From IMG/VR virus record IMGVR_UViG_2531839554_000008: a stretch of DNA of 14,441 nucleotides; one strand, written 5' to 3'. The stretch's first letter is position 1. Each line of letters starts with the position of its first letter. Positions 14,098-14,397 of the stretch are shown here, one piece after another. This DNA comes from a virus. Taxonomy: Duplodnaviria; Heunggongvirae; Uroviricota; Caudoviricetes. The notes below the pieces were generated by a model that saw only the letters and a list, made by a program, of their open reading frames with translations, was not told where the DNA came from and did no database searches. Made by a program: the position numbers and the translations under genes.

Positions 14098-14249
14098 TTA
14101 TGGGGGGAGGAGGTTCAGACCCTTTTTTTAATGATGATGCTAAGTTATTGATAATTAGTGCTGCGGGTAGGTAAGGATAAAAAAGGGTGGCAGCAGGAGA
14201 TTGAGATGGTTTTGCTTTATTAACAACGGGCTAAACGTGTAGTATTTGA

Positions 14250-14397
14250 GTTCACTGCCGTACAGGCAGCTTAGAAAGCACACGTCGAGCTGGTGGGGAT
14301 TAATGCTGGGTTCACTGCCGTACAGGCAGCTTAGAAATTGCCGCGGATCCTGTCTGCCAATAATGACAAGCTCACTGCCGTACAGGCAGATAAAATG
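14250..14397 (+). CRISPR. orphan type I-F CRISPR mini-array: 3 repeats (28 bp), 2 spacers (32 bp)
   Basis: Repeats GTTCACTGCCGTACAGGCAGCTTAGAAA at 14250-14277 and 14310-14337; degenerate terminal repeat GCTCACTGCCGTACAGGCAGATAAAATG at 14370-14397. Spacers at 14278-14309 and 14338-14369. AT-rich leader 14100-14249. No cas genes inside the window. Confidence 0.9.

What the first reader, a model, noticed from the sequence alone, without database searches (positions are those of the whole stretch)
14100..14397. Orphan type I-F CRISPR mini-array next to clpA, 2.9 kb from the satellite
The repeat is the E. coli I-F type with the Cas6f hairpin CTGCCGTACAGGCAG; the terminal repeat is degenerate and no cas genes are visible before the window ends. 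Such clpA-proximal I-F arrays are known in E. coli (established). Whether the two spacers match the island, its helper phages or nothing is open. Spacer 1 shares only a 12-nt run with clpA (12249-12260), which is too short to count.
Basis: partly seen in the sequence, partly recalled or inferred. Interest (0 to 1): 0.45.

Follow-up and report, generated by a model that had tools for sequence, protein, structure and literature searches.

The report
E. coli orphan anti-cas CRISPR array
This is the well-known cas-less type I-F CRISPR mini-array that E. coli keeps beside clpA: one spacer targets the I-F cas3 gene itself, which published work says blocks re-entry of that immune system, and the other targets a lambda-like phage, so it is real but ordinary.

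Summary
Two perfect 28-nt type I-F repeats (14250-14277, 14310-14337; Rfam CRISPR-DR4, 50 bits) and one degenerate terminal repeat (14370-14397, 22/28) separate two 32-nt spacers. The array lies behind a leader, between the clpA terminator and the serW terminator. Identical genomes continue with serW, infA and aat, with no cas genes.

- **Spacer 2** matches cas3f of E. coli I-F systems: 32/32 in one allele and 31/32 in the common B2 allele, each preceded by the CC PAM. No genome among 5,426 holds both the spacer and the target. This is the "anti-cas" or "anti-CRISPR" orphan array of Touchon & Rocha 2010 and Almendros et al. 2016.
- **Spacer 1** matches, 32/32 with a CC PAM, the first codons of a holin gene in a lambdoid phage contig from IMG/VR.
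- **Neither spacer** matches the neighbouring satellite island.

Two smaller points may be new. Type I-E arrays of other E. coli lineages captured the same holin site independently, offset by 2 nt. Spacer 1 also sits on the leader side of the anti-cas3f spacer, as exactly one extra 60-nt unit on the common B2 orphan array. That position suggests a spacer was acquired after the anti-cas spacer was already in place. Overall the array is already known and of low to moderate interest.

The parts
14060..14093 (+). Intrinsic terminator of clpA (context: it separates the array from clpA transcription)
   Evidence: Stem of 15 pairs followed by a T-run. The clpA stop codon is at 14035-14037.
14094..14249 (+). 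CRISPR leader, A/T-rich, upstream of repeat 1
   Evidence: It aligns with the leader of the cas-linked clpA-proximal array of cas+ strains with no difference from B2 strain SF-166 over the leader proper. K-12 and cas+ strain OkiPb01682 share the other leader haplotype. The simple sigma-70 scan found no promoter. Transcription is known only from the literature.
14250..14277 (+). Repeat 1, consensus type I-F repeat GTTCACTGCCGTACAGGCAGCTTAGAAA
   Evidence: RF01317 50.1 bits. Hairpin -8.6 kcal/mol. 28/28 to the consensus.
14278..14309 (+). Spacer 1 (leader-proximal): GCACACGTCGAGCTGGTGGGGATTAATGCTGG. Targets codons 2-12 of a lambdoid phage holin gene.
   Evidence: 32/32 at L006 6551-6582 (IMGVR_UViG_2529293142_000021), preceded by CC and by the ATG start codon. 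The gene is a holin, phrog_126, lying between the Q gene and endolysin/TerS/TerL. No protospacer was found in E. coli genomes, phage or plasmid collections, GTDB representatives or metagenomes.
14310..14337 (+). Repeat 2, consensus type I-F repeat
   Evidence: RF01317 50.1 bits. 28/28 to the consensus.
14338..14369 (+). Spacer 2 (leader-distal): TTGCCGCGGATCCTGTCTGCCAATAATGACAA. This is the anti-cas3f spacer.
   Evidence: 32/32 in cas3f of strain OkiPb01682 (L002 9001-9032) and 31/32 (mismatch at spacer position 29) in cas3f of SF-166 and about 200 other genomes. Both are preceded by CC on the spacer-identical strand.
14370..14397 (+). Terminal degenerate repeat GCTCACTGCCGTACAGGCAGATAAAATG
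   Evidence: 22/28 to the consensus, with the Cas6f hairpin and cleavage site intact. The same ...CAGATAAAATG ending occurs in the K-12 and ST131 orphan arrays.
14400..14433 (-). Terminator of serW (tRNA-Ser, minus strand, starting at 14440). This is the downstream boundary of the array.
   Evidence: Terminator scan. RefSeq annotates tRNA-Ser at the equivalent position. A paralogous sequence follows serX.

Best explanation
This is the cas-less ('orphan') type I-F CRISPR array that nearly all E. coli without I-F cas genes carry between clpA and serW. Touchon & Rocha call it CRISPR3 and the Mojica laboratory calls it CRISPR4.1. Here it appears in a B2-lineage variant with two spacers.

Proposed mechanism:
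1. The leader drives transcription of a short pre-crRNA. This step is reported in the literature and was not shown here.
2. Without Cas6f and the Csy proteins the transcript does nothing.
3. If DNA carrying an I-F cas operon enters and is expressed, Cas6f cuts the pre-crRNA at the intact hairpins of repeats 2 and 3. This yields a crRNA with the handle CUUAGAAA, spacer 2 and the hairpin.
4. The Csy complex pairs this crRNA with the CC-flanked protospacer inside cas3f, and Cas2/3 degrades the incoming DNA. The invading CRISPR-Cas system is turned against itself and cannot establish.

Shown here: the array anatomy, the PAM-flanked cas3f match, and the mutual exclusivity of spacer and target. Taken from published experiments: the interference step and the accompanying primed spacer uptake.

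Spacer 1 is an ordinary anti-phage spacer against a lambdoid phage that active E. coli I-F arrays also target. It has no effect unless I-F Cas proteins are present.
For: Array identity.

Position and orphan status. The leader is homologous to that of the cas-linked array.

Anti-cas match:
- Spacer 2 is 32/32 or 31/32 inside cas3f with a CC PAM.
- The one mismatch is at PAM-distal position 29.
- 241 of 5,426 genomes carry cas3f. 915 genomes match spacer 2, each at a single place. That gives about 674 arrays plus 241 targets and no genome with both, against 30 expected under independence.
- The K-12 orphan spacer likewise matches cas1f at 29-30/32 with a CC PAM.

Literature:
- Cas-less CRISPR3 arrays hold spacers against Ypest/I-F cas1, cas3 and csy2 (PMC2886076).
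- Native orphan arrays are constitutively expressed, interfere with plasmids carrying I-F cas genes, and trigger primed acquisition (PMC8616872; PMC5972030; both summarise Almendros et al. 2016).
- The PAM is GG on the target strand at the leader-proximal end, which equals CC on the spacer strand (PMC3506596).

Spacer 1 target. Six of 36 spacers from two cas+ strains hit the same 10.4-kb phage fragment.
Against: - No promoter was detected in the leader by the consensus scan, so transcription in this strain rests on the literature only.
- The mutual exclusivity is partly structural. The orphan and cas+ configurations are alternative states of one locus and follow lineages, so the hypergeometric P value overstates the evidence for selection.
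- The primary experimental paper (Almendros 2016) is not in the held library. I read only reviews by the same group.
- Spacer 1 does not match a cas gene. This departs from the published statement that these arrays hold only anti-cas spacers.
Confidence: 0.85

Rival explanations
1. The array is an inert relic. It is what remains after a self-targeting accident: an ancestral cas+ cell acquired the anti-cas3f spacer, and only cells that deleted the cas operon survived. The array now persists by inertia, with no function.
For: Diez-Villasenor et al. 2010 proposed this, as quoted in PMC2886076 and PMC8616872. The leader and flanks are the same as in cas+ strains of the same phylogroup, consistent with recent gain or loss at one locus. 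The array is tiny and has a degenerate terminal repeat.
Against: Spacer 2 is not the last-acquired spacer here. Spacer 1 lies on its leader side, which does not fit 'acquire the anti-cas spacer, then lose cas at once'. The spacer is conserved unchanged in about 674 genomes across several sequence types. Touchon & Rocha argue that repeat-mediated deletion should have removed a neutral spacer. Reviews report that native orphan arrays do interfere with incoming cas plasmids.
Confidence: 0.1
2. The array mainly serves as a homology anchor, or landing pad, for re-acquiring I-F cas operons by recombination. Alternatively it is a guide store to be used by Cas proteins supplied in trans by a mobile element, such as an I-F-bearing plasmid, phage or I-F3 transposon.
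For: Touchon & Rocha suggest that CRISPRs outlive cas genes and provide integration hotspots. cas+ and cas- loci share identical leaders within a phylogroup. CRISPR-associated transposons can use heterologous or orphan arrays if the repeat hairpin fits (PMC11300857). Spacer 1 is a usable anti-phage guide.
Against: The spacer common to all these arrays is directed against cas3f itself, so a canonical I-F system supplied in trans would be attacked rather than helped. No I-F cas gene exists elsewhere in genomes carrying the array, since each has a single spacer-2 match. No I-F element was seen in the window.
Confidence: 0.05

Closest known systems
Orphan 'anti-cas' CRISPR4 (CRISPR4.1) arrays of E. 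coli (Almendros, Guzman, Garcia-Martinez & Mojica, Nat Microbiol 2016). The same locus is called CRISPR3 'anti-CRISPR' by Touchon & Rocha, PLoS One 2010.
   Same: Same locus (clpA-serW), same repeat, same leader and the same degenerate terminal repeat ending ATAAAATG. There are no I-F cas genes in the genome, and one spacer matches an I-F cas gene (cas3f) with the cognate PAM. UPEC 536, a strain present in the earliest genome sets, carries this exact two-spacer array.
   Different: This variant holds one additional, leader-proximal spacer that does not match a cas gene but a phage holin gene. The 2010 paper states that cas-less arrays contain only cas-matching spacers.
The cas-linked clpA-proximal I-F array (CRISPR4.1/CRISPR3) of cas+ E. 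coli such as LF82, SF-166 and OkiPb01682
   Same: Identical leader and repeat and the same position after clpA. The spacers come from the same lambdoid phage type.
   Different: Those arrays have 7-14 spacers and a different terminal repeat (…CAGTATTCACAC). They are followed by cas1f-cas3f-csy1-csy2-csy3-cas6f, and a second array lies between serW and infA. None contains spacer 2.
K-12 orphan I-F array (clpA-serW, 2 repeats and 1 spacer)
   Same: Same locus, leader family and terminal repeat. Its single spacer is also anti-cas.
   Different: The K-12 spacer targets cas1f rather than cas3f. The leader haplotype is that of non-B2 strains.

Membership tests
Type I-F CRISPR array (Rfam CRISPR-DR4 / 'CRISPR-4' repeat type) | 28-nt repeat matching the family model above its gathering score | tested here: met
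   RF01317 scores 50.1 bits against a gathering score of 35 for two repeats. The terminal repeat scores 21.5 bits.
Type I-F CRISPR array (Rfam CRISPR-DR4 / 'CRISPR-4' repeat type) | Regular 60-nt period with 32-nt unique spacers | tested here: met
   Start-to-start spacing is 60 and 60, and both spacers are 32 nt.
Type I-F CRISPR array (Rfam CRISPR-DR4 / 'CRISPR-4' repeat type) | Cas6f-type hairpin (5-bp stem, 5-nt loop) ending at repeat position 20, leaving an 8-nt 5' handle | tested here: met
   The minimum-free-energy fold gives .....(((((.....)))))........ at -8.6 kcal/mol in both the consensus and the terminal repeat.
Type I-F CRISPR array (Rfam CRISPR-DR4 / 'CRISPR-4' repeat type) | Adjacent cas1-cas2/3-csy1-3-cas6f operon | tested here: not met
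   Identical genomes continue with serW, infA and aat. This is why the array is classed as orphan. It does not affect the repeat-type assignment.
E. coli orphan anti-cas array (Almendros 2016; Touchon & Rocha 2010) | Located between clpA and serW, with the leader of the clpA-proximal I-F array | tested here: met
E. coli orphan anti-cas array (Almendros 2016; Touchon & Rocha 2010) | At least one spacer matching an I-F cas gene, with the cognate PAM (CC 5' on the spacer strand) | tested here: met
   Spacer 2 matches cas3f at 32/32 and 31/32, preceded by CC. The PAM definition comes from PMC3506596.
E. coli orphan anti-cas array (Almendros 2016; Touchon & Rocha 2010) | The targeted cas genes are absent from the same genome | tested here: met
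   All 915 genomes that match spacer 2 have exactly one match. 241 genomes carry cas3f. None holds both.
E. coli orphan anti-cas array (Almendros 2016; Touchon & Rocha 2010) | Conserved degenerate terminal repeat specific to cas-less arrays | tested here: met
   The ending ...CAGATAAAATG is shared with K-12 and ST131 arrays, whereas cas+ arrays end ...CAGTATTCACAC.
E. coli orphan anti-cas array (Almendros 2016; Touchon & Rocha 2010) | Constitutive transcription of the array | tested here: inconclusive
   The consensus promoter scan found nothing in 13950-14441. Expression is reported in the literature.
E. coli orphan anti-cas array (Almendros 2016; Touchon & Rocha 2010) | Interference against incoming DNA that carries an I-F cas operon | not testable with these tools
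   This needs a transformation or conjugation assay. It is reported for native orphan arrays.

The most novel reading that the evidence does not exclude
Spacer 1 may be a natural record of spacer uptake by an array that already held the anti-cas3f spacer. The window's array equals the common B2 orphan array (leader-R-S2-Rterm, about 570 genomes) plus exactly one 60-nt repeat-spacer unit at the leader end (about 101 genomes). Spacer 1 has a genuine CC-flanked protospacer in a phage that active I-F arrays also target. Because new units enter at the leader end, spacer 1 would have been written after spacer 2. That would require a transient, ultimately aborted visit of I-F adaptation genes, which would be the natural counterpart of the primed acquisition seen in the laboratory. 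Orphan arrays would then still be writable and would log failed CRISPR-Cas invasions. A second point: I-F and I-E arrays in separate lineages captured the same holin start site, 2 nt apart, at an ATG-CC double PAM. This hints at a strong acquisition hotspot just upstream of the phage's packaging genes.
Probability: 0.35. Interest if true: 0.5.

Novelty: already known. Interest (0 to 1): 0.25.

Why it matters
The array itself adds nothing new. [quoted passage not shown] For the genome scan, the value lies in closing the open question. The array has no relation to the neighbouring phage satellite, since no spacer matches the island. Its two guides are directed at cas3f and at a lambdoid phage.

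The small additions worth a specialist's glance are:
- the first identification, as far as the searched text goes, of the non-cas spacer's target;
- its position on the leader side of the anti-cas spacer, which bears on how and when orphan arrays can still acquire spacers;
- the independent capture of the same protospacer by type I-E arrays.

Tried and rejected
**Searches that found no target**
- Spacers against the island and the rest of the window: no match with up to 3 mismatches. The best ungapped identity is 20/32, and the only exact runs are 12 nt, at 12246-12257 in clpA and 6438-6449 in the island. These runs lie outside the seed, lack a PAM, and are reached by about 2% of shuffles. I rejected them as targets.
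- Spacer 1 against phage and plasmid collections: only chance hits of 17-25 nt. Against 5,426 E. coli genomes it matched only CRISPR arrays.
- A codon-wobble pattern for spacer 1 found nothing in 185,579 species-representative genomes. In metagenomes it found four contigs, all type I-E arrays.
- Spacer 2 against phages: chance hits only.
- Spacer 2 against plasmids: one exact hit, but that 'plasmid' (NZ_CP134387.1) is a chromosomal fragment carrying the same clpA-array-infA locus.

**Steps that failed or gave nothing**
- Extending the phage contig L006 by searching its ends returned the same 10.4-kb stretch.
- The primary paper of Almendros et al. 2016 is not held.
- No paper in the library prints either spacer sequence.
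- The promoter scan of the leader found nothing.

**Explained side observation**
- The second megablast 'place' per genome for the region is the serX terminator paralogue, not a second array.

**Idea not carried forward**
- I considered that L006 might be a phage-plasmid, because its endolysin resembles genes on roughly 90-kb E. coli plasmids. The gene content seen is plainly lambdoid: KilA-N, RusA, Q, holin, endolysin, Rz, TerS and TerL.

Full report
**1. What is in the sequence**

Downstream of clpA (stop codon at 14037) lies a strong intrinsic terminator at 14060-14093. An A/T-rich stretch of about 155 nt follows, and then three direct repeats spaced exactly 60 nt apart.
- Repeats 1 (14250-14277) and 2 (14310-14337) are identical to GTTCACTGCCGTACAGGCAGCTTAGAAA. 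Each scores 50.1 bits against Rfam CRISPR-DR4, whose gathering score is 35.
- Repeat 3 (14370-14397, GCTCACTGCCGTACAGGCAGATAAAATG) is 22/28 and scores 21.5 bits.
- All three fold into the 5-bp stem and 5-nt loop that Cas6f recognises.
- The spacers are 14278-14309 (S1) and 14338-14369 (S2), each 32 nt.
- Right after repeat 3 comes the terminator of serW on the minus strand (14400-14433). The window ends 2 nt into that tRNA gene.
- No ORF of 50 aa or more lies beyond clpA.

**2. Orphan status and locus identity**

The 404 nt after clpA are 100% identical in many human extraintestinal E. coli, including Combat2C1, BH100, F11 and ECONIH2. Part of the region is present in 5,423 of 5,426 complete genomes.

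In Combat2C1 the array is followed by serW, infA, aat, cydC and cydD, with no cas gene.

In cas+ strains the same clpA-proximal leader and repeat start a longer array. That array is followed by cas1f, cas3f, csy1, csy2, csy3, cas6f, serW, a second array and infA.

The window's leader shows no difference from that of the B2 cas+ strain SF-166. K-12 and the cas+ strain OkiPb01682 share the other leader haplotype. The array is therefore the cas-less state of the clpA-proximal I-F locus. Touchon & Rocha call it CRISPR3 (PMC2886076) and the Mojica laboratory calls it CRISPR4.1 (PMC3506596).

**3. Spacer 2 is an anti-cas3f spacer**

A search of 5,426 genomes gave 915 genomes with a match, each with exactly one place. 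The matches fall into two kinds:
- unannotated orphan arrays;
- the coding sequence of cas3f, at 32/32 in OkiPb01682-type alleles and 31/32 in the common B2 allele.

In both alleles the protospacer is immediately preceded by CC on the strand identical to the spacer. This is the I-F PAM, written as GG on the target strand at the leader-proximal end in PMC3506596. The single mismatch is at spacer position 29, far from the PAM-proximal seed. The seed location is from my own knowledge of I-F systems.

cas3f is present in 241 genomes. That leaves roughly 674 genomes with the spacer, 241 with the target, and none with both. About 30 with both would be expected if the two were independent (P about 6e-15). 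The two states are alternative forms of one locus and follow lineages, so this figure overstates the evidence for selection.

The K-12 orphan array has a different single spacer that matches cas1f at 29-30/32, again with CC. So the anti-cas theme is general across orphan arrays.

**4. What the literature says**

- Touchon & Rocha (2010) found that cas-less CRISPR3 arrays carry spacers against Ypest/I-F cas1, cas3 and csy2. They proposed an 'anti-CRISPR' role.
- Reviews from the Mojica group summarise Almendros et al. (2016). Native orphan arrays are constitutively expressed. They interfere with plasmids carrying a complete I-F cas set. That targeting primes acquisition of further plasmid-derived spacers.
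- I could not read the primary paper.
- The mechanism I adopt comes from these sources and from the anatomy shown here. Both crRNAs can be matured because the hairpins of repeats 2 and 3 are intact.
- I could not show a promoter.

**5. Spacer 1 targets a lambdoid phage, not the satellite**

S1 has no protospacer in E. coli genomes, the phage collection or the plasmid collection.

In IMG/VR it matches 32/32 in a 41-kb viral contig (L006 6551-6582). The local sequence is ATG-CC-[protospacer]. The ATG is the start codon of a 123-aa holin (phrog_126), and CC is the I-F PAM.

The surrounding genes are KilA-N, a Ref-like nuclease, RusA, a Dcm-Dam methyltransferase, antiterminator Q, holin, endolysin, Rz, TerS and TerL. 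This is a lambdoid nin and late region.

This phage is absent from the 5,426 complete E. coli genomes. Diverged holin homologues sit in prophages of Kluyvera ascorbata (28/32, CC kept) and of a Citrobacter species (22/32).

Neither S1, nor S2, nor 36 spacers taken from two cas+ strains match the island in the window or its relative in Combat2C1.

**6. Two observations beyond the known story**

(a) *The same holin site was captured by type I-E arrays.*
- The exact version, CC+S1[1-30], occurs in the cas2e-iap array of LS45/SMS-3-5-type strains (25 genomes).
- A variant occurs in the queE-ygcE array of O104:H4-type strains (about 90 genomes).
- The I-E spacers start 2 nt upstream. They therefore begin with the I-F PAM, and the upstream ATG serves as their I-E PAM.
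- The O104:H4 version differs from the phage at two synonymous third-codon positions (CCG>CCA, GGA>GGG). This indicates a separate capture from a diverged allele.

(b) *S1 sits on the leader side of S2.*
- ST131 and other B2 strains carry leader-R-S2-Rterm. The window's array is that array plus exactly one 60-nt R+S1 unit at the leader end.
- S1 in an I-F repeat context occurs in 101 genomes. All 48 sampled were orphan arrays.
- CRISPR adaptation is polarised, so S1 was probably written when S2 was already present. This needs adaptation proteins whose gene S2 targets.
- A transient, aborted I-F invasion would explain it, in line with the primed acquisition reported in the laboratory.
- Loss of S1 in the other lineages, or recombination between arrays, cannot be excluded without a phylogeny.
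- S1 also belongs to a wider pattern. Six of 36 spacers from two cas+ strains hit the same 10.4-kb phage fragment at 29/32 or better (two at 32/32, four with CC). They do not hit 80 TerL-related IMG/VR loci totalling 1.45 Mb.

**7. Verdict**

The feature is a member of a described and experimentally studied class. It is present in this exact form in about 100 sequenced genomes, including UPEC 536. The open question has an answer: S2 targets cas3f, S1 targets a lambdoid phage holin gene, and nothing targets the satellite. Novelty: already known. Interest is low to moderate, carried only by the spacer-order argument and the I-E/I-F convergence.

Noticed in passing
window 572-11239: The island beside the array looks like a capsid-forming phage satellite. 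It is bounded by imperfect 69-nt direct repeats (572-640 and 11171-11239) and inserted between yljB and clpS. It encodes an integrase (661-1899), a primase (3981-5735), an SSB (6278-6700), a ClpP-type protease fused to a major capsid protein (7330-9243; PF00574 plus PF25209) and a small terminase of the DUF1441 family (9413-9985). Combat2C1 carries a related but different island at the same site.
   Followed up: partly
window 9413-9985 and L006 7916-8434: The satellite's small terminase is 57% identical (E 9e-52) to the small terminase of the phage contig that carries the spacer-1 protospacer. That phage type could therefore share a packaging system with the satellite and might be a helper candidate. 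This is speculative.
   Followed up: partly
window 6728-6812 and 9262-9346: An 85-nt direct repeat (96% identical) occurs twice inside the island. One copy lies about 0.5 kb upstream of the protease-capsid gene (7330-9243) and the other between that gene and the small terminase gene (9413-9985). It may be a duplicated regulatory region.
   Followed up: no
window 5749-5979 and 10798-10954: Clusters of short tandem or inverted 9-11-nt motifs (CTGTCTACC and TTGCGGGTTA) occur in intergenic parts of the island. They resemble iterons or protein-binding arrays.
   Followed up: no
L004 2998-3029; L005 2999-3030; L010-L013: Type I-E arrays of other E. coli lineages hold a spacer from the same holin start site as spacer 1, shifted by 2 nt. 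The lineages are the O104:H4 type (queE-ygcE array) and the LS45/SMS-3-5 type (cas2e-iap array). The O104:H4 version differs from the phage at two synonymous codon positions, which indicates independent capture.
   Followed up: yes
L006 858-889, 1608-1639, 1719-1750, 2346-2377, 2511-2539, 7521-7549: Six spacers from the I-F arrays of two cas+ E. coli strains (OkiPb01682 and SF-166) match this one 10.4-kb lambdoid phage fragment at 29-32 of 32. Another I-E spacer, found in metagenomic E. coli arrays, matches at 5527-5558 with an ATG PAM. This phage type therefore seems to be a frequent CRISPR target in E. coli, although it is absent from 5,426 complete E. coli genomes.
   Followed up: partly
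L003 11123-12046: In the cas+ strain SF-166, csy2 is annotated as a pseudogene with an internal stop. Not every cas+ locus is intact.
   Followed up: no
window 14399-14441; L014 225-270: The serW terminator is nearly identical to the sequence downstream of the paralogous tRNA gene serX. This explains why megablast reports a second 'place' per genome for the region.
   Followed up: yes
L009 (NZ_CP134387.1): An 88-kb record labelled as an E. coli plasmid carries macAB-cspD-clpSA-array-infA-aat-cydCD. It looks like a piece of chromosome rather than a plasmid.
   Followed up: partly
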